64,000 bases of DNA from a virus (lineage: Duplodnaviria; Caudoviricetes), in IMG/VR virus record IMGVR_UViG_3300037851_000141, positions 64,001 to 128,000 of that record. One strand, given 5' to 3'. A program made the translations under genes and the position numbers. Under the pieces are notes generated by a model. The model searched no databases, had not been told where the DNA came from, and saw nothing but the letters and a program-made list of their open reading frames with translations. The number at the start of each line of letters is the position of its first letter. Within the stretch, counting starts at the first letter, position 1. Below are positions 17,496 through 42,714 of this stretch, in pieces.

Positions 17496-17500
17496 TCATT

Positions 17501-20236
17501 TCAGGGAGATACACGAATCGCTTTTACATTCCAAGACCCAGCCATAGACAAAGCAACTAATCTTAAATATCCGGCATTAATATCAGATATAAGATCAAGA
17601 TTACTTGTGTCTCCTATGCTTGGAGTTGATGATTCAGCATATTCTACAGTACTACCATCTGTTATAGCTAATATATTACTTGTACGAAGACCAGTAGAGC
17701 CAGAAACAGAAACCGTCCAGTTAGCAGAATTCGTAGCACTAGCAGCAACAGAATCAATTACGGAAGTTGATATTACATCATTTACATAACTTCTTGGTAA
17801 TAGATTGTTTACATAATTTATTGATTGAGTGTATGAATTGGCTGATGTTGAATTTACATAACTTGTTAAAGCGTAATCCGAAGATACGGCCACGGTAAAT
17901 GTATTTGTTGGAGATTCTATTACTTGAATACCATTTCCACCAAGAACATTAACTGAGTTTATTTGATCTTGTAAATAACCACTAATATTAGAAACGGCCG
18001 AGATTGTGCTAAATGTATCTAATATTGAAATAGATTTGCCACCATCAATAATTCTTCCATCACCATTCCAAGTTAAGAAATTCCCAGATGGTCCAGCAGT
18101 TAAAGTTGATACATAAACGTTAGGTGTTTTTATTCCTCTATATTCGGATGTTGGATCTAATGGATATTCTGAGTTGGTAAGAAGATTATATATAGCTACA
18201 TTAGTATTTCTCATATTTGTGCCGCGAGTCATACCACTTGGCGGCGGAATAATTGAACTAGCAGTATTATTATATTTAACCGTAACCGTGTGAACACCGG
18301 GAGTAAGACCAAACCAAGTATAACTAAAATGAGACTTAGCTGATGAAGGTGCGGTTGTGTCAGTTAACCACGTTCTTGCTTGTGATATAGACACTCCAGT
18401 ATTATCAACTCTAGCATACTGAGCAATTCCGCTGCCAGAAATTCTAAACTCAAAACCACCATATCTTAACTCTTCAGAAGCAGCAAATCTGTTCCAAGTG
18501 GCAACAACATCACAATCTAATAAAAATTCGCCTGTATTTGGAATATATACGTCAAATAGTATATCAGCTTGGACGCCACCGCCAGTAGTATAAACACCAA
18601 CTCCACGTTGCGAAGAATCTCCTTTTATTCCACAGTTATAATATCCTTGAGTAAATGGAGAGTCTGGTGGTTCAACTCTTAAATAATCTCTATCTTCTCC
18701 AGTCAATGATCCACTACTTAATGTCCAATTCCTATAGTTTTTAGAATCACGCAAACGTCTTCCAAATGGACCTAGTATATTAGAAAAATTATAATATCCC
18801 GGTGTAGATGTTAATGTTGGACCAAATAAAGTTAATATATTCTCATAATCCCGCATTGATTCTCTGGTAGTTGTTGATGAATAATTACATTTATCAAATT
18901 TTAAGTTGCCATATTGGTCATTGTATATAACATAATCGTCAAACTTTGATTGTCCGCTTATTGGAGAGTTTATAACAGTACCATAAAACACTTGGCGAGT
19001 TTTTATAACATTTTCATAAGATTGCGAGGCTCTAGCGTGAATTTCATCAGCTAAAACATTTGATTCATAAACTATAGTATCATTAGTTACCGCACCCAAA
19101 AGAGTTGAATTATAATAATAAATATAATTGTTATTTACAGAACCTTGATCTGTCTGAGCTACACTTAAGGCATCATCAACCACAAGCTCATCTGATATAT
19201 AAGCAGAGTTATTAACAGTTAGTAAACCATCAGTTGTAACATTACCATTCCCATAAACAGTTAGTCCATTTGATCCACCAGACGAATTTATTACAAAACT
19301 TCTAGCATCATAAAGATTGATTATATTTCCGTTGTTATACGCATTTTGTAAAGTTACCAATCCACCAGATAAAGTTTGTAATTCAGTGAAAAGAACATAC
19401 TCGCTACTTACGCTAACAGTATATACATTTGATATTGATTCTAATACTTCAATTCCATTTCCGCCAAGTACGATAGTAGATTCTTGTTCTATACTATTAA
19501 TCTGGTTTTGTAAATAAGCACTAACATCAGCGGTTTCAGTACGAGTTGTATATGCTGATAATGGAACAGCATTTATTTGATTTTGTAAATAAGCACTAAC
19601 ATCAGCGGTTTCAGTTCTTGTAGTATAATTTATTTCAATTGACGTAATTCTATCAGTTAAATCGCCTGTTATATTAACCATTTCTGTTCTAAGATATGGA
19701 TCGCCCACTTCAGCAAACTCAAGCCCACTTTGATCCATTTTAACTAATACAGCCTTACCCTCACTACCAACATAAGAATTGGGCGAGTCAGTTAACTGTA
19801 AGAAATTAGATACACCACCAGATAAAACGATAGCATCAATCTGATATTGTAAATAACCAGAAATATCAGACGATTCAGCTTCAGTGATATACGTTTCTTC
19901 AAGATTTGTTATACGTTCATCAAGAGCAGCCGTAGCATTATCAACATAAGTTCTATAAACAATGTTAGAAACTGCTATATTACTACTTACTATTTTTCCC
20001 GAACTATCTGTGGCTAAAAGTTCATTAGCATTAATATAATTTACATTAAGGTCTGAAAATGTCTTTTTACCATCTATAATCTGTGTAACATTTGATTTAG
20101 AAACATAATCTCCATTTAATATTTCAAGATTATCGGCAATATACTTAAAATTGTCTATTATAAGCTCACCACCATCTCTATTGGGTGGCGGGTCTGTTAT
20201 TTTTAAGCCTTTATACAATTCAATATTCGTTGCCAT
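17501..20236 (-). CDS. Tail fibre-like structural protein (911 aa)
   Basis: N-terminus paralogous to 26408..28015; tandem 'YTTRTETADVSAYLQNQIN' repeats; two ESP-type repeats. Confidence 0.7.
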   Translation of the reverse strand: MATNIELYKGLKITDPPPNRDGGELIIDNFKYIADNLEILNGDYVSKSNVTQIIDGKKTFSDLNVNYINANELLATDSSGKIVSSNIAVSNIVYRTYVDNATAALDERITNLEETYITEAESSDISGYLQYQIDAIVLSGGVSNFLQLTDSPNSYVGSEGKAVLVKMDQSGLEFAEVGDPYLRTEMVNITGDLTDRITSIEINYTTRTETADVSAYLQNQINAVPLSAYTTRTETADVSAYLQNQINSIEQESTIVLGGNGIEVLESISNVYTVSVSSEYVLFTELQTLSGGLVTLQNAYNNGNIINLYDARSFVINSSGGSNGLTVYGNGNVTTDGLLTVNNSAYISDELVVDDALSVAQTDQGSVNNNYIYYYNSTLLGAVTNDTIVYESNVLADEIHARASQSYENVIKTRQVFYGTVINSPISGQSKFDDYVIYNDQYGNLKFDKCNYSSTTTRESMRDYENILTLFGPTLTSTPGYYNFSNILGPFGRRLRDSKNYRNWTLSSGSLTGEDRDYLRVEPPDSPFTQGYYNCGIKGDSSQRGVGVYTTGGGVQADILFDVYIPNTGEFLLDCDVVATWNRFAASEELRYGGFEFRISGSGIAQYARVDNTGVSISQARTWLTDTTAPSSAKSHFSYTWFGLTPGVHTVTVKYNNTASSIIPPPSGMTRGTNMRNTNVAIYNLLTNSEYPLDPTSEYRGIKTPNVYVSTLTAGPSGNFLTWNGDGRIIDGGKSISILDTFSTISAVSNISGYLQDQINSVNVLGGNGIQVIESPTNTFTVAVSSDYALTSYVNSTSANSYTQSINYVNNLLPRSYVNDVISTSVIDSVAASATNSANWTVSVSGSTGLRTSNILAITDGSTVEYAESSTPSIGDTSNLDLISDINAGYLRLVALSMAGSWNVKAIRVSP
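19506..19615. repeat. 75-bp-period tandem duplication inside a fibre gene
   Basis: ttttgtaaataagcactaacatcagcggtttcagt occurs identically at 19506-19540 and 19581-19615. Confidence 0.9.
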
Positions 20237-20262
20237 GCTCTCTCTTTAGAATAGATCACCAT

Positions 20263-20270
20263 TATTTATA
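20263..20270 (-). promoter_or_regulatory. T4-type late promoter
   Basis: Exact TATAAATA, intergenic, 27 nt upstream of ATG 20236. Confidence 0.7.
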
Positions 20271-20293
20271 TTTTAATGAGACGAATAATTGAA

Positions 20294-20779
20294 CTATAAT
20301 AGAGCAGGAATTAGACCAGCATTTGACTTAATCTTCAATAATGCTGCGGATTCTTCTGGCGTTAATCCACTCACACCAGTTTCAATAACTTGGAGGATTG
20401 GTAAATTACTTGTTCTTAATTCACAGTGAGTTTGTTGGTTAATAGGAACAGAACTATAATCAAATAAAGGAGTTCCAACAATTTCAGGAAATAAATTACC
20501 AACTAATACTAACTTTGTTGCTTGGATACCTGTATATGGAATTGGACATATCTTCCAATCATTCTTTATAAAGAAAGCTGAACCAAGATATTCTGTACCA
20601 CCAAGAGGATCACCGCCTGTTGATGAGAATGCTTGGTCCCATTTAAGATTATCATCAATTTGAGTCCACTCTTTCCATAAACTATAAATATCAATAACCT
20701 CAATATTCGCAGAATCCTCACCAGATCCAAACGTTATTTCGACACATTTTTCAAGACCATTAAATGAAATTGTCGCCAT
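20294..20779 (-). CDS. Hypothetical virion-associated protein (161 aa)
   Basis: Intact ORF with its own late promoter; 'IYSLWKEW...NLKW..AF..TGGDP' segment is partly similar to the N-terminus of 20897..22249. Confidence 0.65.
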   Translation of the reverse strand: MATISFNGLEKCVEITFGSGEDSANIEVIDIYSLWKEWTQIDDNLKWDQAFSSTGGDPLGGTEYLGSAFFIKNDWKICPIPYTGIQATKLVLVGNLFPEIVGTPLFDYSSVPINQQTHCELRTSNLPILQVIETGVSGLTPEESAALLKIKSNAGLIPALL

Positions 20780-28638: not shown

Positions 28639-30405
28639 TTAGCAAATCAGTTCCCATTTTTTATATCCACAGTCCCAAAGTCTGTAGAGTTGGTGTTTGT
28701 CTGCTATTTGATGTTCGGATTCTTGAGAAATACCAAACATCTTATATAGTCTTTTTTTATTGAAGGTAAATCTATGTCTACGCTTCCAACCAGTTATATT
28801 ACCTACATATGAATATCTTACTGGAATATCTGACTTAAAGGTAAATCCATTTTTATCATATACTTCTCCATTACTCCATCTATTGTCACTATATGAAAAT
28901 AATGATGAATTTGGGTGTGTATCTCTAAACCTTTTTAATAATCTACTAAATGCTCCAACGACATTATGGTTAATAAGATTACAAAAACGATTAAGTTCCC
29001 AATCACCTTTTCTCGACTCAATTCCAACTTTAAATGTCATTAACGAGACTATCTTATTTTCGTGTATTAGAGCGTAAGCAATATCAGTTTTTCTATCAGC
29101 GCCTTGAATATGGTTTAGCTTACAAAAATTATCTGCTTCGACTTTATTTATTTCAACAATCGTACAGTCTTTTGCGTATATTTTATTTTCAGTTTGTCCA
29201 AGATAGTTTTTAATACGAGATTTACATATTTCTTGTTTATCTATCCATTCATCCTCAAAAATAGTAATAAGTTTGATGCCCAATTCTAAACACTTCTTAT
29301 ACTTGTTATAGTGATATTTACGATCTGTTATATATTTTTCACAATGCCAAACATTACCACAGAATTCAATAGCCAATTTTCGTTCATCAATGTAAATATC
29401 AAGTTCGTGCGGCGTTATTATTTTTTTATTATTTTGTTCTATTTTTTCAACTGGATATATGCTGCTAATAAAATCATATATTTCATTTTCGGTTTGTCTT
29501 TTTGTGGATTTATAACATTTAGGACAAGTCAGTTTATAGTATTTTCCAGTTATTTGATGCCAGTTATATTCGAATTCATATCCACACTCATTACATTTAA
29601 GTTCAATTGGAGTATCACAGTCAACGTAAACTTGGTCTGGATTTGTTGGATATATGTTATTTTCTTTACAAATATCTTTTATTTTTTCATATATTCTGGT
29701 TTTATTAATAATATTACGGCAACCTTGACACTTATCTAAATTTCTAACTAAGGTTTCTTTTTCATATCCACAATCAAGACATATAAACTTAGATTTACTT
29801 CTCGTTCCATTGAATTCTACTATATGCCAATTACCTTGACTCTTTATATGTTCAATTGATACTGTTGTGATTTCTTTATTGAAAATTGGTTCTTTTATTT
29901 GTATATTTTTATGATTTTTATATTTAATGTTATTTATTATTTGTTCGTATTCTTGTTCAGTTTTTATTCCTAACTTCAGTTTATTACATTCATCACAAAC
30001 AAATTGAGGTTTATTTAATGACCAATGATTGAGTGCTTTTATTGTATGATTATGTCCATTTTTACATATGAACGTTATTTGATCTGTCCACTTATTATAA
30101 TATTCTTGTTTCGGTTCAAAATCAAGATTATATTGTTTGGCGTATTCCTCAATTTCTGTTTTTGGAAGCCCCATTTCTTTATATTTTGTTTCTTTATGAC
30201 AGTGAGGACAAGAACTTATATCTTTTCTACCAGTCTTTATTTGTGATATTGATGCTTTATATGTGTGGGTTGAATTTTTTGGACAAATGATAGTAATTGG
30301 AGTATTTGTGTTGAATGTTGCCTCATCTGGTTGTATAATATTTAGACCTTTTGATAAGAAATATTCATTTAGCAACTCTGACATTTTTGGTTTCGGCCGA
30401 GGCAT
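28639..30405 (-). CDS. Hef-like free-standing homing endonuclease: Zn-ribbon repeats, PD-(D/E)XK nuclease and a C-terminal GNAT/Mom-like domain
   Basis: Several CxxC pairs (CPHC, CDEC, CLDC/CQGC, CNEC/CPKC); 'ELDIYIDERKLAIEFCGNVWH'; 'NHIQG...WELNRFC...VVGAFSRLL...SYSDNRWSNGEVY..NGF'; very AT-rich; own promoter. Confidence 0.7.
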   Translation of the reverse strand: MPRPKPKMSELLNEYFLSKGLNIIQPDEATFNTNTPITIICPKNSTHTYKASISQIKTGRKDISSCPHCHKETKYKEMGLPKTEIEEYAKQYNLDFEPKQEYYNKWTDQITFICKNGHNHTIKALNHWSLNKPQFVCDECNKLKLGIKTEQEYEQIINNIKYKNHKNIQIKEPIFNKEITTVSIEHIKSQGNWHIVEFNGTRSKSKFICLDCGYEKETLVRNLDKCQGCRNIINKTRIYEKIKDICKENNIYPTNPDQVYVDCDTPIELKCNECGYEFEYNWHQITGKYYKLTCPKCYKSTKRQTENEIYDFISSIYPVEKIEQNNKKIITPHELDIYIDERKLAIEFCGNVWHCEKYITDRKYHYNKYKKCLELGIKLITIFEDEWIDKQEICKSRIKNYLGQTENKIYAKDCTIVEINKVEADNFCKLNHIQGADRKTDIAYALIHENKIVSLMTFKVGIESRKGDWELNRFCNLINHNVVGAFSRLLKRFRDTHPNSSLFSYSDNRWSNGEVYDKNGFTFKSDIPVRYSYVGNITGWKRRHRFTFNKKRLYKMFGISQESEHQIADKHQLYRLWDCGYKKWELIC

Positions 30406-30565: not shown

Positions 30566-31924
30566 TCAGCGTGAACCAGCAAGGGCTGAGTTCTGGAGGT
30601 TGACAATCTTGATGAAACGGTAGTAGTTTTCGGCCCCGAACAGGTTATCACAGATACCGTATCTGGTCATTACACCAATGACAGGTTGGAATGATTCAAC
30701 CTGAGTTGTACGGCTGAAGAGAACAGGAACGTATGGGCAGTAGATAATACCTGCGTCATTGTCCTTTGGTCCCTTATAGCCAACAACAGCGTAGTCTTCA
30801 GAGGCAAAGCTGTCACGATAGATGGTGAAGCGGCCCAGAGTACCAACCTTAGCAACACCTGATACTTCAGTATTCAGTGAAGCTGAAACTGGAGACATGA
30901 GGAAGTTGTCAAGAGATTCAAGAGCAGCAACAACACCTGGGGAAGCGATAACGAAGTTACCGGCACCACGACGAGTGGCAACAGCAATTTCATTTGAGGC
31001 TTTCAAGAGAATGGTGTACAGAGTACGGAACTTCTCTTGTTCCCAACGGCCATCAGCAGTACCATTAGCATCGCCAACTGTACCATAGTTCCAAACAAGT
31101 ACGCCACCTTGAACAGCACGATAGATGATACGGTTCTTGATTTCGAGGTCGATTTCAGCAGCAATCTCATAGGCGAGAAGGTCTGTGAGTTCGTCTTCTA
31201 CGTCAACATTGTGCATGTTGGCAAGGTCTTGTTGGGCTTCAAGAGTCCAGCGAGCCTTGAGCTTACGGGTATTAGCAGTAATCTCTTTCTTTTCAATGGT
31301 TAAGCCCATTTCGCGGATGGTATCAGTTTCGCCACCGCAAACTTTACCATTGGTGTCAAGACGTTCGCCAAACGCAGTTGGATAAGCATTTGAGCCTTGA
31401 GCAATACCAGTACCAGTTACGTCAGCAATGGTTCCACCAGTTCCAATGTTCTCATGGTTGCCATATTGACCAATAGCAGCATTTGAAGTAATTGAAGTAG
31501 CAGTAGCATCGATTGAGCCTGAGTAAGCTGGGTAAACGGTGTTGTAGCCAGCTTCGGTACCAGCAACAGCGCCAGATTGATAACGATAACGGAGAGCATA
31601 AGCCAAGCCTACTGGAGTAAACATTGGTTGTACGCCTACGAGGTCGTTGGTGATAAGTTCAGGGAATACGCGGGCAACGAGAGGCATTGCGATTCCCATG
31701 TACTTAGCGACACCTTGTTGGCCGTTGATGGCTTGGTTTACAGTACCATCGGTGCAGCCAAGGCCAGCTTCAGAAGCGGTGCCTGATTCGTTAAGAACTT
31801 CACGGGCGAAGTATTGTTCTTCGTTTTCGAGCAATTTAGCAGTTATGATCTGCTTACGTTCACTCTTGATGTGCTTGATCATAGGATCCCATTTCTCAAG
31901 CAGCATTTCGGTGTTATTCTTCAT
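30566..31924 (-). CDS. gp23: Major capsid protein, T4 gp23-like
   Basis: 'VGVQPMFTPVGLAYALRYRY', 'EMGLTIEKKEITANTRKLKARWTLEAQQDLANMHNVDVEDELTDLLAYEIAAEID', 'GIIYCPYVP', 'FQPVIGVMTRYG'. Confidence 0.97.
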   Translation of the reverse strand: MKNNTEMLLEKWDPMIKHIKSERKQIITAKLLENEEQYFAREVLNESGTASEAGLGCTDGTVNQAINGQQGVAKYMGIAMPLVARVFPELITNDLVGVQPMFTPVGLAYALRYRYQSGAVAGTEAGYNTVYPAYSGSIDATATSITSNAAIGQYGNHENIGTGGTIADVTGTGIAQGSNAYPTAFGERLDTNGKVCGGETDTIREMGLTIEKKEITANTRKLKARWTLEAQQDLANMHNVDVEDELTDLLAYEIAAEIDLEIKNRIIYRAVQGGVLVWNYGTVGDANGTADGRWEQEKFRTLYTILLKASNEIAVATRRGAGNFVIASPGVVAALESLDNFLMSPVSASLNTEVSGVAKVGTLGRFTIYRDSFASEDYAVVGYKGPKDNDAGIIYCPYVPVLFSRTTQVESFQPVIGVMTRYGICDNLFGAENYYRFIKIVNLQNSALAGSR

Positions 31925-31964: not shown

Positions 31965-33077
31965 TCAGCCTTTAGCATAAGTTGGCTGAATTTTGGAAGC
32001 CCAAGAGTTAAGTTTCTTATCACTTTCGGTGAGTTCAACTTTCTTAGGGGCTTTTTCCGCAGGAACGCCATCAGCGATTACCTTTTTCATTTGGGCATCA
32101 ATAGCCTTTTGTTGTACTGGTAATACTTTTGGTTCTTCCTTCTTTGCTTCGGTGATTACGGTCTTTGTTTCAGTTGTTTTTTCAGTGGCTTTTGGAGTTT
32201 CCTTAGCTACTGGTTTAACTTCCGATTCAAGGACGATATCTCTGATTTTAGCAAAGTGAGCATCAAGTTCTTCGACATCAACACTTTCGAGAAGTTTGAT
32301 TGCCTTGGAACGTTGAGCATCAGTGAGTCCTTCGGTTATGGCACCAATTTTCACTTTCTTTTCAACTTCTCTCTTTTGTTTGGCGATTGCGATGGCTTCT
32401 TTCTTAGCAGATTGAAGGTCGCTTTCCAACTTTGAGATGGTGTCACGGGACTCTTTGATTAACGCATAGCTTGTATCGTCCAGCTTGATAAAGTTCTTGG
32501 AGAATGATTCCATGATACTATTAACAAGTGGTTGGTACACGCTTAACTTAGATGCGGATTCCATGATTTCAGAAGGAATAGCTGATTGGAGTTTAGCTTC
32601 GAGATAGTCGCTAACCCGTTCAATCATTTCTTCCTTGAATTTTTTAACCTCTTCTACAAGGAGGGCATCTTGTTTTGTTTTATATTCCTTAGCCTCGTTA
32701 AAGACCAAGGTTTCGATTTCTTTACGGTAAGTAGAAGCTTTATCAGCGAGTTTAGTTTCTACTTCAGTCTTATATTCAGCAGCTTGTTTGAGTACAGTTT
32801 CTTCGAGTTGTTTCTTGAAGGTTTCTGCTTGTTCAACGAGTACTTTTTCATTTTCAGCAGTTTCGGCGGCGAGTTTAGCCTTTTCTGCTTCGATTGATTC
32901 TTTGAGTTCTTTTTCTTTAGTTGCGAAGGATTCAGCTAGGAGTTTTTCTTTAGCTTGAACTCTGGCTTCAACAGTTTCATTGATAAGTCCAGATATTTTT
33001 TCTTTTTGTTCTTTTGAGAGTAAATCTTTATCGGTTCCCTCAAGAAGAACATCAAGGATATTTTGTTGTTGAGCCAT
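31965..33077 (-). CDS. gp22: Prohead core scaffolding protein, gp22-like
   Basis: Long Glu/Lys coiled-coil between protease and capsid genes; 'MIERVSDYLEAKL' and 'ITEGLTDAQRSK' are gp22-like. Confidence 0.85.
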   Translation of the reverse strand: MAQQQNILDVLLEGTDKDLLSKEQKEKISGLINETVEARVQAKEKLLAESFATKEKELKESIEAEKAKLAAETAENEKVLVEQAETFKKQLEETVLKQAAEYKTEVETKLADKASTYRKEIETLVFNEAKEYKTKQDALLVEEVKKFKEEMIERVSDYLEAKLQSAIPSEIMESASKLSVYQPLVNSIMESFSKNFIKLDDTSYALIKESRDTISKLESDLQSAKKEAIAIAKQKREVEKKVKIGAITEGLTDAQRSKAIKLLESVDVEELDAHFAKIRDIVLESEVKPVAKETPKATEKTTETKTVITEAKKEEPKVLPVQQKAIDAQMKKVIADGVPAEKAPKKVELTESDKKLNSWASKIQPTYAKG

Positions 33078-33134: not shown

Positions 33135-33842
33135 TTACAAACTTTTTAAAGATGAGATAAAGTTAGTAAGAGCTTCGGCAAAAAGTTCTTTACGATCTAT
33201 GGAATGTTTAGGTAGAATATTTACTTTTCTTTGTAATTTATTGACACATTCTAAAATAGTTCCATTATCGCCAATTATATATTCTTTATTTTCTAATATA
33301 CCTTCAACGAAACCTTCAGGGGCGCTTGGATCGGCAACAGCATCAACTGCGATCATTTCATAGGATTCGACTTGTTTAGAACCATCTGGATTTTGATTAT
33401 CGCTTAATGAACCAAGACCGCGAGTTGAAACGCCGATACGAAGTTTATCATCAAGGAAGGTTTGGAGCATTTTACCGCAAGGATGGGAGATTAGGACTTT
33501 AGCTTTACCAATACAATCATTACCTTGCCAGTCGAGATTTATGATATAGTGAGAAACCCGATCAAGGTTAATTTCAACACCTTCAGGATGGCCAAGTTCT
33601 CCCATTGAGCGGAGTCCTGTACTTGGGTTCATTCTTTCTTGCTTATATTTCTGTACAACACTTTCCATCAACTGTTTACCATATTTACGACCATTACGAT
33701 TTTTAGCTTCGCATTGGATAAAAGGTCCATTAATATAATAAGATTTTTGATATGAACCGTCGTCTTGCTTGAATTTCTCAATAATAGTTTCTACGGGTTG
33801 AATATCGAAGTTTTTGGCTTCAGTTATGAGAATCATTGACAT
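33135..33842 (-). CDS. gp21: Prohead maturation protease, T4 gp21-like
   Basis: 'YINGPFIQCEAKNRNGRKY', 'MGELGHP', 'INLDRVSHYI', 'IGVSTRGLGSL', 'DAVADPSAPEGFVEGILE'; start refined to MSMILITEAK. Confidence 0.95.
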   Translation of the reverse strand: MSMILITEAKNFDIQPVETIIEKFKQDDGSYQKSYYINGPFIQCEAKNRNGRKYGKQLMESVVQKYKQERMNPSTGLRSMGELGHPEGVEINLDRVSHYIINLDWQGNDCIGKAKVLISHPCGKMLQTFLDDKLRIGVSTRGLGSLSDNQNPDGSKQVESYEMIAVDAVADPSAPEGFVEGILENKEYIIGDNGTILECVNKLQRKVNILPKHSIDRKELFAEALTNFISSLKSL

Positions 33843-33864
33843 TTTTACCGTCCCTGGCGAAGCG

Positions 33865-34053
33865 TTATTTATTGACTGATTCTGCTGCGGCTTTATTGGC
33901 AGTAGCATTAATCTCGTCAATGATCTTCGCCTTATTCTTATTTATACAATTATTTAGGGCATCTTTGACGGCATTTGGGAAGTGTTTATCAGCTTCGACG
34001 TAATCTTCTTTAGACATAGCTGATAAGAATTTTTTGAGTGCTTCTTTTGACAT
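33865..34053 (-). CDS. Small prohead core protein (gp67/gp68 position)
   Basis: 62-aa helical ORF between portal and protease, the position of T4 gp67/gp68. Confidence 0.55.
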   Translation of the reverse strand: MSKEALKKFLSAMSKEDYVEADKHFPNAVKDALNNCINKNKAKIIDEINATANKAAAESVNK

Positions 34054-34065
34054 AGGTTGTTCCTT

Positions 34066-37026
34066 TTATTGTGCAAAGCTTTCTAAGTCTGGTCCAGAGG
34101 TCGATTTTGGTTTAGACTCTCCACCGCCAGTTTCATCTCCACCAAGGTCGGGAGTTTCATCTGGTCCACCGCCGGTATCTTCTCCACCGAGGTCAGGTAA
34201 ATCTTCTAATCCGCCTCCACCACCCCCGCCACCAGATCCATCACCAATTGAAACGGGAGCTTCGGCTTCTTCTTGTTTTAACATTTCAGTATTTTCTTGG
34301 ATTTCACTTGGGGTTAGTTTGAGGCATTTTTTCATTACAAACTTACCAGATAATAGTGGTTTTTTACCTTCTTCATCTGATTGGGCGAACTGCATGAGTT
34401 TTTCCATATTTTCAGTACGCAGACTCATGATATTATTTTGGAAGTATTCTTCGAACAGGTTATTTGATAGTAATGAAACGTCGATATCCCGGTCACTAAT
34501 ACCAAACTCGTCAACATATCCTTTAAGTTGTAAGTGAGACATGAATACTTGCTTGAATACTGTTGAAAATCGTTGAGAGTAGGTTGTACACATTTTATGG
34601 AAGCGGTATTCATCTCTGGTAACATCCGAAGTATCACCGAGCGAGAATCCAGCTTCTTCATTTAGTCTTGAGATAGGAATACGAAGACCGCGATATAACT
34701 TTTTAAGGAAGTAGGTAACGTCATCAATTTCGCTAAGATTTTGTCCACCTGGAAGGGTTTCTACTTTACTTCCTTTACCATCTTGAGATATAAAGAAGAA
34801 ATCTTCGACCATTGCCTGTGGGTCATATATTTCGCCGGCTTCTCCTGATTCTGGATTATAGGTTTTACGTTGGCGATATTTTCTCATTAATTGTTGAACA
34901 TATGCTTCCGCTTTTGGTTTAGGCAATTTACCGACTTCTATAGTAAATACTCTCTTTTCAGTACCTTTACAATTATGAACTGGTATATTATTAACTATAA
35001 AATTATGCTCATCGTGGCACACTTCAATATCATATACAGTTGATGTACCAATTTGATCAACATGGCATACATTCTCATATTCTGGCAATGGTAATTTAGT
35101 AAGAGTAATAGAATATGAATCCGATCTATTTATAATACGTTCACCAAACTTACCTGGACCTCCTTTTGTTTTTTTAATCAATCCAGAACATAACCCCATA
35201 GATGCCCATAATTCTTTGATATCTTCAACAAGTTGTCGGTTTGATAATTTTATTGTTGTAAACCAAGTTCCCTTATATGTGTATCTTTCACTACCATCAG
35301 CATCAGATAAACCTTCAATAAATGCCATTTTAATTTCATCCGATGATGTGAAAACCCATTCTGGTATTCTCTTTTTATCATGTCCATGTATATATCCTAA
35401 ATTCTCAAATACCTTAACTCCAATTATAGATGATGTATAGTATGATGTAAACTTTTTATCTTTATTTGATGAACGTTCACATTTTCCAAAGAATTTTTTA
35501 AGTAGGCCAGAATAATAATCATTTAATTCAGGATATTCGCCTTCAGCAAATACTATATTATGTTTATGTACTGTTCCATCTCCTATTAAAAATCCAAATA
35601 ATTTAGCAAACTCAGCATTTACAATATCTGGCAAATGTATTCTTGATGAATTACATTCCCCTTTGTTTACTATTTCAAGATAACTCTCAGGTATTTCAAG
35701 TCTTTCACAAATCTTTTTGGCAAGTTCCAATGGTAATGATTTATTATCTGTATATAAAAATTGCCAAATACGATTAAATTTATAATCAATATCTTTCGCA
35801 ATATTTTTGATAAACTCAGTTTTACTAACATTAAATTTCTTATTTCTTATAAAAGTTCTATCAGTCAATTTTGCCCATGGTTCTCCAAATAATTTTATAA
35901 TAGGAGTATCTACTTGCTTATTATCATTTTTAACATTTATTAATTGATGAACTTTTGGAATTAAATCTTGAGCCTGAATATAAGATATTATTTTAGTTTT
36001 CTTATTTCTAACTAATATTGGATGATCTGGAGTACATGTTAATTCTGAGTGATGGCTTCTGACTCTTACAACTTCTTTAGTACCATTATTCCATTTATTA
36101 CTAACTTTTGTTTCATATTGTTTACCATCTTTATAAGAATATACAGTATCTCCTATTTCAACATCTTTAATATATTTCCATCCAGTGTTGGTTCTGATTC
36201 GGCTAAATTCATCCAAACATAAACGATAAATAACAACAGCATCTTCCATTTGTTTAAGTTTTCTATAGTCGATTTTAGCACGTTCAAGATAAGATAATAC
36301 AATTTTAGTCCAACGATCTTCCCAAGCATATATACCAGAGTTAGCATAGGCGACAGCTTCGGGTGGTAGAACGAGTATATTTGATTCGTTTTTATGTACG
36401 AATTGATATACTTGTTCTGTGTCAGGTTCCCAAATTGTATGGGTAAATTCTGGACGTAATCTCTTAACTCTTATTAAACCTCGTTCTTTTACTGTCGTTG
36501 GGTCTATAACTTTTTCGAAGAATATTTCACCATCGATCATGTAATCATTAAACCATTCATATACATTTTCTTTAGCATTCATAACGTCATGGAGTACATA
36601 TTTCCATTCTTTTACCAGATTAGCGACTATATTTTCATTTTGTGATAGTCTGTTATTTTTTATATTAAATTGGACGAATTCACCTTGGTCATTGAAGTTA
36701 ACACATTCATCTACAACTTCACCTATAGCAAATCCGATTTCAGGGAAGAATGACATATCACGGTAGACTTTAAGACGATTTAGTTTACCGGGTTCTGAGT
36801 TATATACGAATGAGTTGAAATATCCTGTTTGTTTTTGGAAGTCAATAGCAGATACAGCAGAAACGTCAGCCATATCAGTTGCGCTTGGAATCTGTTGTTT
36901 ACCGTATTTCTCACCTTGTCTGTCAAAAGTATTATAAACACGTTTGAAATGTTGTTGCTGGGCGGCTTTAGACCATCTGTTTCTTCTCACAAATGGTTCA
37001 ACGATCTTTCTAAATAGGTCTGCCAT
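34066..37026 (-). CDS. gp20: Portal protein gp20, interrupted by an intein
   Basis: 'YRDMSFFPEIGFAIGEVVDE', 'YMIDGEIFFEKVID', 'LKQMEDAVVIYRL', 'RVFTIEVGKLPKPKAE', 'YFLKKLYRGLRIPISRL'; start refined to ATG 37026 (GGGAG RBS). Confidence 0.95.
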   Translation of the reverse strand: MADLFRKIVEPFVRRNRWSKAAQQQHFKRVYNTFDRQGEKYGKQQIPSATDMADVSAVSAIDFQKQTGYFNSFVYNSEPGKLNRLKVYRDMSFFPEIGFAIGEVVDECVNFNDQGEFVQFNIKNNRLSQNENIVANLVKEWKYVLHDVMNAKENVYEWFNDYMIDGEIFFEKVIDPTTVKERGLIRVKRLRPEFTHTIWEPDTEQVYQFVHKNESNILVLPPEAVAYANSGIYAWEDRWTKIVLSYLERAKIDYRKLKQMEDAVVIYRLCLDEFSRIRTNTGWKYIKDVEIGDTVYSYKDGKQYETKVSNKWNNGTKEVVRVRSHHSELTCTPDHPILVRNKKTKIISYIQAQDLIPKVHQLINVKNDNKQVDTPIIKLFGEPWAKLTDRTFIRNKKFNVSKTEFIKNIAKDIDYKFNRIWQFLYTDNKSLPLELAKKICERLEIPESYLEIVNKGECNSSRIHLPDIVNAEFAKLFGFLIGDGTVHKHNIVFAEGEYPELNDYYSGLLKKFFGKCERSSNKDKKFTSYYTSSIIGVKVFENLGYIHGHDKKRIPEWVFTSSDEIKMAFIEGLSDADGSERYTYKGTWFTTIKLSNRQLVEDIKELWASMGLCSGLIKKTKGGPGKFGERIINRSDSYSITLTKLPLPEYENVCHVDQIGTSTVYDIEVCHDEHNFIVNNIPVHNCKGTEKRVFTIEVGKLPKPKAEAYVQQLMRKYRQRKTYNPESGEAGEIYDPQAMVEDFFFISQDGKGSKVETLPGGQNLSEIDDVTYFLKKLYRGLRIPISRLNEEAGFSLGDTSDVTRDEYRFHKMCTTYSQRFSTVFKQVFMSHLQLKGYVDEFGISDRDIDVSLLSNNLFEEYFQNNIMSLRTENMEKLMQFAQSDEEGKKPLLSGKFVMKKCLKLTPSEIQENTEMLKQEEAEAPVSIGDGSGGGGGGGGLEDLPDLGGEDTGGGPDETPDLGGDETGGGESKPKSTSGPDLESFAQ
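34972..36219 (-). mobile_element. Intein (416 aa) with LAGLIDADG homing endonuclease, in the portal gene
   Basis: Starts CLDEFSRIRTNTGWKYIKDVEIGDTVYS; block B 'LTCTPDHPILV'; LAGLIDADG blocks 'LFGFLIGDG' and 'FIEGLSDADG'; ends 'VYDIEV...NFIVNNIPVHN' followed by +1 Cys. Confidence 0.95.
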
Positions 37027-37084
37027 GATTACTCCCAATATATCATTATAATATAAGTTTGTAAATTATATTATAAGTCAAACC

Positions 37085-37125: not shown

Positions 37126-37569
37126 ATGGGTTTAAAACAAGGCATATTTAATCCACAACACCCAGAAAAATGTAAGGGTAAACTTCGTTCCGTATATAGG
37201 AGTGGTTGGGAATTGACGTTTATGAGATTTTTAGATACGAACTCTGGTGTAGTTGAATGGAGTTCTGAGTCATTGCCTATTAGTTATTTTAATCCAGTCA
37301 AGAATAAGATATGTCGTTATTATCCAGATTTTCTCGTAAAGTATAAGGGTAAAGATGGAGAATATCATATTGAACTTATTGAAATAAAGCCATATCGTGA
37401 GACTCAACCGCCAAAAATACACGGTAATAAGAAACAGAGTACTTTATTAATGGAATGTAGAACTTGGTCAATTAATCAGGCGAAATGGGAAGCTGCCAAA
37501 AAATTCTGTGAGCAGCGAGGAATAACTTTTAGATTGATGACTGAAAAGGAACTTAAAGTTATCCGTTAG
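37126..37569 (+). CDS. gp4: Head completion nuclease, T4 gp4-like (TnsA-type fold)
   Basis: 'YRSGWELTFMRFLDTNSGVVEWSSE...RYYPDFLV...IEIKP...NQAKWEAAKKFC...FRLMTEKEL'. Confidence 0.9.
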   Translation: MGLKQGIFNPQHPEKCKGKLRSVYRSGWELTFMRFLDTNSGVVEWSSESLPISYFNPVKNKICRYYPDFLVKYKGKDGEYHIELIEIKPYRETQPPKIHGNKKQSTLLMECRTWSINQAKWEAAKKFCEQRGITFRLMTEKELKVIR

Positions 37570-40583: not shown

Positions 40584-42185
40584 TCATTTCTTTAGTTTAG
40601 ATAAGTCAATTTTTGGATAGCCGGAATCTTTTAATTTAAGTTCATCAGTTGTAAATATAGATTCTTCCAATTTACGACTTGTTAACTTATCACCTAAACG
40701 ACTTGGAACCGTAGCAATACCTTGAGTTGCGTTGACGGCTTGATTTACAGTACCATCAGCAGCACCAGGGCCAGCAACAGCAGCAGTTCCACACTCGTTC
40801 ATAGCAACATCAAGTATTTTGGCTTCACCAGACTTAAGTAATGATAACAGTTTAATCTGACTAATAAAAGACATTTCGCCATTATCTTTAGTTAATTGGA
40901 TACGACCATTCTTAAATTCTGGATTAACTGAGAAAATATCACCATTTATTTCTATATCTCTGCCTTTTAAGTTTTCAAGTTCAGATAGGTCAGTTGTTTT
41001 AGATAAGAGGGATTGATATGCTTCACGAACTGAGCAGAACATATCACTCTTTTCTTTAGGTTCAACAGTTTCAGCTTCATTCATTTCTGGCTTTGGTTCA
41101 TACATTTCATACCAGTAATTTGTTCCATCATACATAATTGAAACGTTATTATCAACCAAATAAGAATCTTCATCTTCGTCCAATTCATCAACTTGTTCAA
41201 AGCTTGTATCTGTGGCAACATCAAGATTATCATAATGGTTTTCTAAGTCATTATAATTTACATCATCTGATACTTTATCTTCGTCATTATGGATTTGTTC
41301 TGATGCGTAATCTGATATGCTTATTGGACTTAGATCGTTTTTAGCTTCGAGTACTTGGTCAATTTCTTCAAGCATTTTACGGAAGCTGGCTTGAAGACCA
41401 GTTAAGGCAGTTGACATACGTTCATCATTAGTCTTTTTAGTATCTTCGTGTGTTTCTGGGTTTACATCAACATCATTAGCTTTATACTTATCCCATTCTA
41501 TTTCTTCATTTAAGTTTTGTTTTTGTATTTCTTCTTTAGCTGTAGCAGTTGGTAATGGTTTTAACATGCTTATATCAATTTCTTCTGGGTTATTTTTATT
41601 ATCATACCAAATTACAGTAGCTTTTGATCTTCCAGGAACATATTGACGATTGCCGAATTTAGGAATAGCACCGACGCGAATTCTATTTTTTTCTAATGGG
41701 CTATTGGCAAGACGAGCATCAGAATAAGTAACATAATATCCACTTTGAGTTTCATTTTCTGGAGTAGCGATTGGGTCTGTGGTTGGAGCATCTTCTTTTA
41801 CAACTTTTTTAGCAGCAGCGAGTTCGGCTTTAGCAAGAGCAGCCTTTTCAGTTGCTTGTTTCTTATTAAGGTCTGCTATTTCTCCCATTTTTTTAGCTTT
41901 ATCTTGTTCCATTCTTGCTATATTAGTTGTGGTTGTTTCTTCATTTGTAGGAATAATATCTTTTCCTTCAGGCAATTCTTTAGGTAATGGTGCGTCTGGA
42001 ATTGATGATTGTAGTTTATCTTCTGGTTTGGCTTGAGGAAGAACATCAACAACAGGTTCTTCATAAATAACTTCATCATTGAGAACGCGAACACTATATC
42101 CATGTCCTTCAAGAATTGTATATTTTTGGTCTTTAGAAACTACATTAAAGCGTTGACCACGGTATTTAGCCTTCTGTTGTGCCAT
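40584..42185 (-). CDS. Acidic hypothetical late protein (533 aa), probable head-internal protein, containing a capsid N-arm-like segment
   Basis: Late promoter upstream; many hydrophobic-X-Glu sites; residues 'MNECGTAAVAGPGAADGTVNQAVNATQGIA' match gp23. Confidence 0.6.
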   Translation of the reverse strand: MAQQKAKYRGQRFNVVSKDQKYTILEGHGYSVRVLNDEVIYEEPVVDVLPQAKPEDKLQSSIPDAPLPKELPEGKDIIPTNEETTTTNIARMEQDKAKKMGEIADLNKKQATEKAALAKAELAAAKKVVKEDAPTTDPIATPENETQSGYYVTYSDARLANSPLEKNRIRVGAIPKFGNRQYVPGRSKATVIWYDNKNNPEEIDISMLKPLPTATAKEEIQKQNLNEEIEWDKYKANDVDVNPETHEDTKKTNDERMSTALTGLQASFRKMLEEIDQVLEAKNDLSPISISDYASEQIHNDEDKVSDDVNYNDLENHYDNLDVATDTSFEQVDELDEDEDSYLVDNNVSIMYDGTNYWYEMYEPKPEMNEAETVEPKEKSDMFCSVREAYQSLLSKTTDLSELENLKGRDIEINGDIFSVNPEFKNGRIQLTKDNGEMSFISQIKLLSLLKSGEAKILDVAMNECGTAAVAGPGAADGTVNQAVNATQGIATVPSRLGDKLTSRKLEESIFTTDELKLKDSGYPKIDLSKLKK

Positions 42186-42714
42186 TTGATTCTTCCTTAT
42201 CGTTATCTTTATTTATACTCTTTTGTCTTAGTAATTCTGTCTTCATTCCATAAACAGCAATACAAACCGCATCAGCAATACCATCTGAGTCAGTTTTACA
42301 CCGCTTTGAAGCTTTCAGTGATATATCTGGGCAATTCTGTTTACAAAAATTTATAGCATCATCTTTATCAGCGGTATTAGCACCCAGAACTTCCTTTTTC
42401 CATTTTTGGGGAGTAACATAATAAAGTGGTATCTCAAGAATATCAAATATTGCGTGAAGTCCTCCAGCAGTCTGACCAAAAGAGAATATAGAAACAACAT
42501 TTTGATTAGGCATAGAACCAACCAATTCAATATACCCAGCATCAACTTTATGATTTTGTATATATTTGTAAACTGCGTTAAAATTAGTTATTATTGATTC
42601 TTTTTTAACTTTTTTTATTCTTTGGATTGGCATGGCAAGAACTTCAACAATTTTGCCACTTTCGCATATAGCAATACCGCCTTTATTCCCTGGGTCGATT
42701 CCTACTATTTTCAT
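42166..42714 (-). CDS. RuvC-like Holliday junction resolvase
   Basis: 'MKIVGIDPG..GGIAI', 'YIELV', 'FSFGQTAG', 'QKWKK', 'DGIADAVCIA'. Confidence 0.85.
   Translation of the reverse strand: MKIVGIDPGNKGGIAICESGKIVEVLAMPIQRIKKVKKESIITNFNAVYKYIQNHKVDAGYIELVGSMPNQNVVSIFSFGQTAGGLHAIFDILEIPLYYVTPQKWKKEVLGANTADKDDAINFCKQNCPDISLKASKRCKTDSDGIADAVCIAVYGMKTELLRQKSINKDNDKEESNGTTEG
42210..42217 (-). promoter_or_regulatory. T4-type late promoter for the 533-aa gene
   Basis: Exact TATAAATA 25 nt upstream of ATG 42185, inside the 3' end of the RuvC-like gene. Confidence 0.6.

What the first reader, a model, noticed from the sequence alone, without database searches (positions are those of the whole stretch)
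40713..40802. A copy of the mature major-capsid N-arm inside an unrelated 533-aa late protein
gp23 (31706-31795) LNESGTASEAGLGCTDGTVNQAINGQQGVA aligns without gaps to MNECGTAAVAGPGAADGTVNQAVNATQGIA, with 19/30 identities. The DNA is also visibly similar (shared ggcttgRtttacagtaccatc). In both proteins the segment begins at a hydrophobic-N-E site, the expected gp21 cleavage point (established for T4 gp23). Maturation would therefore release a ~70-aa C-terminal peptide whose N-terminus mimics the mature capsid arm. It could anchor an internal protein in the lattice by arm-swapping, regulate expansion or head size, or act as a decoy for capsid-sensing host defences such as Lit or CapRel-type sensors (inference). 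I know of no described precedent.
Basis: partly seen in the sequence, partly recalled or inferred. Interest (0 to 1): 0.75.

Follow-up and report, generated by a model that had tools for sequence, protein, structure and literature searches.

The report
Capsid N-fist copy in core protein
A late gene of a 332-kb T4-like freshwater phage carries, between two conserved head-protease cutting sites, a copy of the first ~27 residues of the mature capsid protein; phage T4 keeps its own version in the uncharacterised gene 61.1, so a cut-out copy of this capsid arm may be a general, unstudied part of T4-type head assembly.

Summary
Residues 462-491 of the 533-aa protein (X) match gp23 residues 44-73 at 19/30. 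BLASTP extends the match to 24/49 (E=5e-9). These are the only two copies in the 331,849-bp genome.

It is not a recombination scar. X belongs to a large metagenomic family, and this block is its most conserved part: 29/33 identical in an orthologue that is 29% identical overall.

The block corresponds in position to the T4 gp23 "N-fist" (residues 66-91) plus the start of the N-arm. In 17 of 18 alignable family members it lies between two hydrophobic-x-E sites of the type cut by the T4 prohead protease. AlphaFold2 predicts it disordered. Six of seven X orthologue loci checked have an exact T4 late promoter (TATAAATA) 30-37 nt upstream of the start codon.

T4 has its own analogue, gp61.1: an internal-protein-type targeting leader, a copy of T4's own fist (17/37, E=1e-9) and a basic tail. 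Cross-clade comparisons give no alignment, so each copy tracks its own capsid protein. Earlier reports of this scan noted gp61.1 in other T4-like genomes. X shows the same principle in an unrelated protein of a distant jumbo-phage clade.

My best reading is that X is a prohead core polyprotein that releases a free ~44-residue fist peptide. Packaging, cleavage and the binding partner are all inferred.

The parts
42210..42217 (-). T4-type late promoter TATAAATA, starting 32 nt upstream of the X start codon
   Evidence: Exact match. An exact TATAAATA lies 30-37 nt upstream of the ATG in 6 of 7 X orthologue loci.
40584..42185 (-). Gene X: 533-aa acidic protein (101 D+E, 66 K+R), a member of a large uncharacterised family of T4-like jumbo phages
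   Evidence: No Pfam, PHROG or NCBIfam match.
42060..42185 (-). Conserved N-terminal small beta domain (residues 1-42)
   Evidence: This is the family-wide conserved block. AF2 pLDDT is 87-96. Fold searches give only generic small beta-barrel hits.
40794..40802 (-). Site 1: M462-N463-E464, a predicted prohead-protease cut just before the copy
   Evidence: A hydrophobic-x-E lies 1-3 residues before the copy in all 18 alignable family members (for P0166 it was read by eye from the sequence). It is the same kind of site as LNE in gp23.
40662..40793 (-). Predicted released peptide, residues 465-508 (44 aa): capsid N-fist copy, then a P-S-R-L-G stretch and a basic cluster
   Evidence: BLASTP against gp23. 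29/33 identical in P0006, which is 29% identical overall. Predicted disordered, pLDDT below 50.
40662..40670 (-). Site 2: L506-E507-E508, a second conserved predicted protease cut
   Evidence: An L/I/F-x-E site directly after the basic cluster in 17 of 18 alignable members. E508 is invariant in alignment A2.
30566..31924 (-). gp23-type major capsid protein (452 aa), the only Gp23-family gene in the genome
   Evidence: Pfam Gp23 at 1.5e-96. Single match in the whole genome.
31706..31795 (-). gp23 residues 44-73: LNE cleavage-type site plus the positional equivalent of the T4 N-fist
   Evidence: Alignment to T4 gp23. Conserved across about 40 close gp23 homologues. T4 N-fist = residues 66-91 (PMC7136217).
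33135..33920 (-). Prohead serine protease (Peptidase_S77, T4 gp21 type), the presumed processing enzyme
   Evidence: Pfam 1.2e-27, PHROG head maturation protease 4.7e-50.
31965..33077 (-). T4-type scaffolding protein (gp22-like), a candidate docking partner of the gp23 N-terminus and of its copy
   Evidence: Pfam T4_CASP 5.7e-11, PHROG head scaffolding protein.

Best explanation
X is a late-made prohead core (internal) protein built like a small polyprotein. It has an N-terminal beta domain, acidic helical regions, and a disordered module that copies the capsid protein from its maturation cut through the N-fist to the start of the N-arm.

Proposed mechanism: the phage's gp21-type (S77) prohead protease cuts at the conserved hydrophobic-x-E sites on both sides of the copy and releases a free peptide of about 44 residues (P0002:465-508) inside the maturing head. 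This mirrors what T4 gp61.1 would yield after removal of its 10-residue targeting leader. The copy works by occupying the sites normally used by gp23's own N-terminal segment. Before cleavage these would be contacts with the scaffold or protease inside the prohead. That is the same gp23 region where the T4 head-length mutations A66D, A94V and G97S map. After cleavage they could be fist sockets of the lattice.

Shown here: the copy, its selection, the flanking sites, the late promoter, the predicted disorder and the independent T4 analogue. Inferred: packaging, cleavage, the binding partner and the effect on assembly.
For: 1. Real and unique copy: E=5e-9, with only two copies in the genome.
2. 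Strong selection: the block is the longest invariant stretch in a family that is otherwise about 30% identical. The family includes many metagenomic members.
3. Site 1 is present in 18/18 and site 2 in 17/18 alignable members. Long forms have a third site before a ~90-residue C-terminal domain, which also occurs as stand-alone proteins (P0116, P0125).
4. An exact TATAAATA lies 30-37 nt upstream of the ATG in 6 of 7 orthologue loci.
5. X lies on the same strand about 3.5 kb upstream of the portal-protease-scaffold-gp23 block, and this layout is kept in L003 and L087.
6. X is very acidic with nine hydrophobic-x-E sites (eight L/I-x-E plus MNE), like T4 core proteins.
7. The copy is predicted disordered while the flanking domains are confident. 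This fits the T4 N-terminal region, which is disordered inside the prohead (PMC9546572).
8. Independent analogue: T4 gp61.1 has the M-K-T-F/Y-K/Q-E-F-I start that in T4 is otherwise found only in ipII and ipIII. It then copies T4 gp23 residues 57-93 (17/37, E=1e-9). Homologues occur in 1433 phage records.
9. Cross-clade comparisons find no alignment, so each copy follows its own gp23.
10. gp61.1 is essentially leader plus copy plus tail. This argues that the copy itself is the functional product, not just a tag for a cargo.
Against: There are no proteomic, structural or genetic data for X or gp61.1, so presence in the prohead and cleavage are inferred from sequence only. Hydrophobic-x-E motifs are frequent in acidic proteins. 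Within the jumbo clade, X-gp23 identity is no higher within a genome than between genomes. In L087 the X copy is degenerate while gp23 keeps the standard fist, so close identity is not always required. In more distant relatives with other fist sequences (L133-L135), the gene slot upstream of RNase H holds a different repeat protein and no fist copy lies within 10 kb of gp23. T4 gene 61.1 sits in the primase cluster with no exact TATAAATA in T4 17,500-20,700 around it. X and gp61.1 are not demonstrably homologous (hhalign probability 2.6%).
Confidence: 0.45

Rival explanations
1. Lattice anchor by arm-swapping. After cleavage at E464 only, the C-terminal fragment inserts its fist copy into the sockets that normally take a neighbour's N-fist. 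That would tether the rest of the fragment (in long forms, the ~90-residue C-terminal domain) to the shell, or fill orphan sockets next to the portal or vertices.
For: In T4 the N-fist binds four subunits and helps form the Soc site. The fists that face the portal are disordered, so orphan environments exist (PMC9958956; PMC7136217). Long X forms have a folded-looking C-terminal domain after the copy. The genome has no gp24 paralogue.
Against: Conserved second and third protease-type sites lie between the copy and the C-terminal domain, so a tether would be cut. This phage and its closest relative lack that domain entirely. T4 fists dock on the outer surface after externalisation, whereas a core-derived free peptide starts inside. 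A free peptide competes poorly with tethered fists.
Confidence: 0.2
2. Pseudo-substrate or timer. The copy reproduces the extended recognition region around the gp23 cut so that it competes for the prohead protease and paces, or reports on, capsid cleavage.
For: The similarity is centred on the cleavage site in both clades. In T4 it also includes the residues before the cut (F-x-x-F-L/I-x-E). T4 encodes other regulators of gp21, such as Inh (annotation).
Against: In the X family only the residues after the cut are conserved, and upstream residues vary freely. Known gp21 specificity needs only L/I-x-E (PMC9026906). A conserved 27-33-residue block downstream is therefore more than recognition needs.
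Confidence: 0.12
3. Shared handle for a third factor. Both gp23 and X carry the segment because the same chaperone, modifying enzyme or decoration protein must recognise both. The conserved Cys could, for example, be used for a cross-link.
For: A Cys sits in most copies, either right after the cleavage Glu or in G-C-x-D-G, as it does in the gp23 fists.
Against: Some family members (P0107, P0108) have no Cys in the block. No candidate enzyme was identified. The T4 fist and gp61.1 have no Cys.
Confidence: 0.08
4. Decoy for host defences that sense the capsid protein. A soluble copy of the gp23 N-terminus titrates a capsid-sensing immunity protein.
For: Capsid-sensing defences exist (general knowledge). 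The copy is disordered and exposed.
Against: The flanking protease sites, the T4 head-targeting leader on gp61.1 and the position next to head genes point to action inside the prohead. From my memory of the literature, the known T4 Gol trigger of Lit lies just after the copied region, not within it.
Confidence: 0.05
5. Neutral recombination scar or chance similarity.
For: None beyond the short length of the match.
Against: E=5e-9 for the pair. The block is the most conserved part of the family across proteins about 30% identical. An independent analogue exists in T4.
Confidence: 0.01

Closest known systems
T4 gp61.1 (54 aa, 'hypothetical protein') and its long forms in Ac42, Miller, Miro, V07 and other Straboviridae
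   Same: A non-capsid protein carries a copy of its own phage's gp23 cleavage site, N-fist and start of the N-arm, followed by a basic cluster. A hydrophobic-x-E site precedes the copy. The product after cleavage is about 44 residues in both cases.
   Different: There is no detectable homology to X outside the copy (hhalign probability 2.6%; BLASTP finds nothing significant, best E=0.07 outside the copy). gp61.1 uses an IP-type leader or a ~100-residue N-domain, lies upstream of the primase gene and has no exact late promoter in T4. X is 533 aa, acidic, late-promoted, lies between RuvC and RNase H, and has a second cut site after the copy. gp61.1 is itself uncharacterised; I found no functional paper on it.
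T4 prohead core proteins cut by gp21 (gp22, gp67, gp68, IPI-III, Alt)
   Same: Made for the head, acidic or charged, carry L/I-x-E sites, and are cut into fragments or freed from a targeting piece during maturation (PMC9026906, PMC9958956).
   Different: T4 gp67 and gp68 show no fist-like segment (read by eye), and a whole-genome search of T4 with the fist finds only gp23 and gp61.1. X has no sequence similarity to any of these proteins, and no CTS-type leader was recognised in it.
N-fist / N-arm of T4 gp23* (residues 66-91 and following)
   Same: The copied block is the positional equivalent: it starts at the maturation cut and ends where the conserved Gp23 Pfam domain begins. In T4 this region is disordered inside the prohead. 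After expansion it binds four subunits and helps form the Soc site.
   Different: In X the block is not attached to an HK97-fold body, and it is followed by another protease-type site.

Membership tests
T4 gp61.1-type capsid-arm mimics | Copy of the same phage's gp23 cleavage site plus N-fist in a non-capsid protein | tested here: met
   X vs own gp23: 24/49, E=5e-9. T4 gp61.1 vs T4 gp23: 17/37, E=1e-9. Cross-clade pairs give no alignment.
T4 gp61.1-type capsid-arm mimics | Sequence homology to gp61.1 (short or long form) outside the copy | tested here: not met
   hhalign A7 vs A4: probability 2.6%, motif region only. No PHROG hit for X. The own genome has no homologue of the long-form N-domain.
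T4 gp61.1-type capsid-arm mimics | IP-type capsid targeting leader (M-K-T-Y/F-x-E-F-I-x-E) or the long-form N-domain | tested here: not met
   X starts with a different conserved beta domain.
T4 gp61.1-type capsid-arm mimics | Basic cluster directly after the copy | tested here: met
   S-R-K in X and R-R-K or K-R in relatives, against K-K-K-K in gp61.1.
gp21-processed prohead core / internal proteins | L/I-x-E cleavage sites at conserved positions | tested here: met
   Sites 1 and 2 are conserved in 18/18 and 17/18 members. This is shown by sequence only.
gp21-processed prohead core / internal proteins | Late expression together with the head genes | tested here: met
   Conserved TATAAATA upstream of the ATG. 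This is a promoter motif only; no transcript data were examined.
gp21-processed prohead core / internal proteins | Physical presence in proheads and actual cleavage by the protease | not testable with these tools
   Needs prohead or virion mass spectrometry, or in vitro cleavage. The phage is uncultured.
Gp23 / HK97-fold capsid proteins | HK97-fold body (Pfam Gp23 domain) | tested here: not met
   No Pfam Gp23 hit for X. The AF2 model shows small beta domains and long helices, not an HK97 fold.

The most novel reading that the evidence does not exclude
T4-type phages, from classical Straboviridae to distant freshwater jumbo phages, all make a free, protease-released copy of the capsid protein's N-fist inside the maturing head. 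This peptide acts in trans on the shell: it fills orphan fist sockets at the portal or vertices, or it competes with gp23 arms for the scaffold and so sets head size or gates expansion. That would be a new class of capsid maturation factor, missed even in T4.
Probability: 0.2. Interest if true: 0.85.

Novelty: new variant of a known kind. Interest (0 to 1): 0.62.

Why it matters
T4 head assembly is one of the best-studied assembly pathways. Even so, I found no paper in the searchable library that describes a second, protease-flanked copy of the capsid N-fist.

Two very distant T4-like lineages keep such a copy in unrelated carrier proteins, each matched to its own capsid protein. This argues for a conserved function in prohead assembly or maturation. 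The copied region is the one where T4 head-length mutations map, and it later locks capsomers together.

The idea is directly testable in T4: delete or mutate gene 61.1, look for the peptide in proheads, and measure head size, cleavage and expansion. If the peptide binds a defined site, it could also serve as a natural handle for loading or displaying cargo on T4-type capsids.

Tried and rejected
- **INPHARED phage collection.** Searching with X (tblastn) and with gp23 DNA gave no match.
- **First database scans with X alone.** The IMG/VR scan and the metagenome scan with alignment A1 found nothing. Family alignments were needed.
- **Fist copies next to gp23.** I looked within ±10 kb of gp23 in 80 IMG/VR loci. 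There was no X N-domain and no second fist. Many contigs are short, so this is weak evidence.
- **Whole-record searches for X.** Five records with related gp23 were searched, and only gp23 itself matched.
- **Gene conversion.** Within-genome DNA and codon identity is not clearly above between-genome values, so I rejected recent conversion.
- **Fine co-variation in Straboviridae.** Across 10 gp23/gp61.1 pairs the matched-pair identity sum was 173 against a shuffled mean of 167, P about 0.036 without phylogenetic correction. An apparent V/I co-variation held in 8 of 10 pairs only. I treat this as weak.
- **Complex prediction.** Two copies of gp23(74-452) plus X(462-533) gave no verdict, with a score of 0.00. 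This counts neither for nor against binding; a fist socket needs up to four subunits, which exceeds the size limit.
- **Fold and Atlas searches with the X model.** These returned only generic small beta-barrel hits or noise.
- **T4 gp67 and gp68 as precedents.** Neither contains a fist-like segment.
- **C-terminal domain of long X forms.** It was not found anywhere in this genome.
- **Miller et al. 2003 T4 genome review.** It could not be read because it is not held in the library.

Full report
**Observation**

The window carries a T4-type head module on the minus strand:
- a portal gene with an intein (34066-37038);
- a Peptidase_S77 prohead protease (33135-33920);
- a gp22-like scaffold (31965-33077);
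- a gp23-type major capsid protein, P0001 (30566-31924).

The 533-aa ORF P0002 ("X", 40584-42185, minus strand) lies between a RuvC-like gene and an RNase H/5'-3' exonuclease gene, about 3.5 kb upstream of the portal.

BLASTP gives 24/49 and E=5e-9 for the pair. A six-frame scan of the whole 331,849-bp genome finds the motif only in these two genes. The genome has a single Gp23-family gene and no gp24 paralogue.

**Not a scar**

X has no Pfam, PHROG or NCBIfam match, but it has many relatives in metagenomes. Two came from the word-indexed search. Two more came from IMG/VR, with flanking DNA (L003 and L004). A profile search of 1.84 billion representatives added about twenty clear members.

In the alignments (A1, A2) the copy is the longest invariant block. 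P0006 is 29% identical to X overall but 29/33 identical across the copy. Upstream of the cut the sequences vary freely, and the conserved block starts at the cut. The extra upstream similarity is therefore specific to this phage or due to chance.

**What the block is**

Alignment to T4 gp23 places the block between the maturation cut and the start of the Pfam Gp23 domain. That is the positional equivalent of the T4 "N-fist" (gp23 residues 66-91) plus the first residues of the N-arm.

According to the T4 structural papers:
- this region is disordered and inside the unexpanded prohead, where it probably contacts the scaffold;
- it carries the head-length mutations A66D, A94V and G97S;
- on expansion it is externalised, binds four subunits and contributes to the Soc site;
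- the fists that face the portal stay disordered (PMC9958956, PMC9546572, PMC7136217).

About 40 close gp23 homologues keep the same fist as this phage. More distant gp23 clades have other fist sequences.

**Anatomy of X**

A motif-centred listing of the family shows three things:
- A hydrophobic-x-E site, the T4 gp21 cleavage type (L/I-x-E, PMC9026906), lies just before the copy in all 18 alignable members. For P0166 I read it by eye from the sequence.
- A second such site lies directly after a basic cluster in 17 of 18. In X this is L506-E507-E508.
- Long forms have a third site before a ~90-residue C-terminal domain.

That C-terminal domain also exists as stand-alone proteins (P0116, P0125). 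It is absent from X, from its closest relative and from the rest of this genome.

X is very acidic (101 D+E against 66 K+R) and has nine hydrophobic-x-E sites in total: eight L/I-x-E plus MNE.

AlphaFold2 with the family alignment gives:
- a confident N-terminal beta domain (residues 1-42);
- helices at 82-131 and 246-283;
- a small beta domain at 405-460;
- a disordered 462-533 region, pLDDT below 50.

The layout therefore looks like a polyprotein that would release a free peptide of about 44 residues (P0002:465-508).

**Expression**

An exact T4 late promoter, TATAAATA, lies at 42210-42217 (minus strand) and starts 32 nt upstream of the ATG. The same motif lies 30-37 nt upstream of the start codon in 6 of 7 orthologue loci, and the seventh has one mismatch. 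The same motif precedes the portal, protease and scaffold genes of the window. The order RuvC-like gene, X, RNase H, then portal-protease-scaffold-gp23 a few kb downstream is kept in L003 and L087. In L004 the gp23 gene lies about 26 kb away on the other strand.

**An independent analogue in T4**

I searched T4's own genome with its gp23 residues 60-102. This gave a second hit at E=2.5e-5 in gene 61.1. By BLASTP, gp61.1 (54 aa) matches gp23 residues 57-93 at 17/37, E=1e-9.

Its first eight residues fit M-K-T-Y/F-Q/K-E-F-I. In the whole T4 genome that pattern occurs only in ipII, ipIII and 61.1. The IP leader is the known capsid targeting sequence and is removed by gp21 (PMC9026906; the sequence itself is held in 10.1101/2021.01.19.427310). 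Removing it would leave 44 residues: a fist copy plus a K-rich tail.

Homologues occur in 1433 phage records. Some are 150-166 residues long, with the copy at the C-terminus behind a hydrophobic-x-E-E site. Several GenBank records call them "major capsid protein, T4 gp23-like" or "putative capsid component", so annotators have seen the similarity. I found no paper on its function.

Earlier reports of this scan describe gp61.1 in the same way in at least eight other T4-like genomes. I read them only after finding it independently.

X and gp61.1 are not detectably homologous. The fist of X does not align with T4 gp23, and gp61.1 does not align with this phage's gp23. At clade level, then, each copy tracks its own capsid protein. 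This holds whether the copies arose once and co-evolved with gp23 or arose twice independently.

**Limits on the mimicry**

- Within the jumbo clade, X-gp23 identity is no higher within a genome than between genomes, and codon identity is only slightly higher.
- In L087 the copy in X has drifted to a G/A/S/T-rich stretch that keeps only the end of the motif, while its gp23 has the standard fist.
- In ten Straboviridae pairs, matched-pair identity is only slightly above shuffled pairings (173 against 167, P about 0.036, not corrected for phylogeny).
- In three more distant relatives (L133-L135), the slot upstream of RNase H holds a different repeat protein, and no fist copy lies within 10 kb of gp23.

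**Interpretation**

The common denominator of X and gp61.1 is a fist copy with a basic tail that is set up to be released by the prohead protease. gp61.1 has nothing else attached, so the copy is probably the functional product and not merely a targeting tag.

I favour a prohead core protein whose copy occupies the sites used by gp23's own N-terminal segment (0.45). Before cleavage these would be scaffold or protease contacts; after cleavage, possibly fist sockets. The rivals are:
- a lattice anchor by arm-swapping, weakened by the cut sites that follow the copy (0.2);
- a protease pseudo-substrate or timer (0.12);
- a handle shared for a third factor (0.08);
- a defence decoy (0.05);
- chance or a scar (0.01).

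Packaging, cleavage and binding are all inferred. The complex prediction gave no verdict and is not used as evidence.

**Novelty**

The carrier protein family is undescribed. The principle matches T4 gp61.1, which is itself uncharacterised. I class this as a new variant of a known kind (protease-processed head proteins and the gp61.1-type capsid-arm mimic). Its interest is raised by recurrence in two distant lineages and by direct testability in T4.

Noticed in passing
window 34066-37038 (-): The T4-type portal gene (990 aa) carries an intein with a LAGLIDADG homing-endonuclease domain (Pfam Intein_splicing and LAGLIDADG_3). Related phages have intein-less portals of 534-578 aa.
   Followed up: partly
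window 28639-30405 (-): A 588-aa HNH/zinc-ribbon homing-endonuclease-like gene lies directly downstream of the major capsid gene (PHROG 3339 and 559).
   Followed up: no
window 37126-37569 (+); also L001:4057-4500, L133:3688-4128, L134:4861-5334, L135:1105-1605: A ~147-aa ORF sits on the opposite strand between the RNase H region and the portal. Its positional counterparts in four related loci are called TnsA-like (PF08722). It is a conserved lone endonuclease-like gene inside the head-gene neighbourhood.
   Followed up: no
T4 AF158101 104945-105250 (gp23 residues 57-65) vs the ipII, ipIII and 61.1 starts: The last residues of the T4 gp23 propeptide (F-G-S-F-L-T-E) resemble the capsid targeting sequence of the internal proteins (Y-Q-E-F-I-A-E). 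The CTS itself may imitate the end of the capsid propeptide.
   Followed up: partly
P0006:170-235 (relative of X); profile positions 130-225 of A2: Some X relatives carry an inserted ~90-residue basic domain that alone accounts for most of the 567 hits of the profile search. It is a widespread small domain of unknown function found in many short proteins.
   Followed up: no
P0129 (342 aa, X family member): This relative has two tandem copies of the degenerate fist-like module. Each begins after an E-D-S-A stretch and each ends in a basic cluster plus an L-x-E site.
   Followed up: no
X family and gp23 fists: In most, but not all, family members a single Cys sits either directly after the cleavage Glu (E-C-G) or in G-C-x-D-G, and the two positions are nearly mutually exclusive. 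The gp23 fists of the clade have it in G-C-x-D-G. This could mark a disulfide or other cross-link.
   Followed up: no
L134:2338-2832 and L134:3433-3897; L133:1256-2663: In distant relatives, a 164-aa protein is homologous to the N-domain of long gp61.1 forms (E=4e-17 vs phage Miller) but has no fist copy. The genes upstream of RNase H there encode proteins with repeated P-V-x-R-E-M-G motifs, which recall the P-S-R-M-G stretch that follows the copy in X.
   Followed up: partly
whole genome G000: There is only one Gp23-family gene in 332 kb (CheckV completeness 92%). The phage has no gp24-type vertex paralogue, so its pentons are presumably made of gp23 or of an unrecognised protein.
   Followed up: partly
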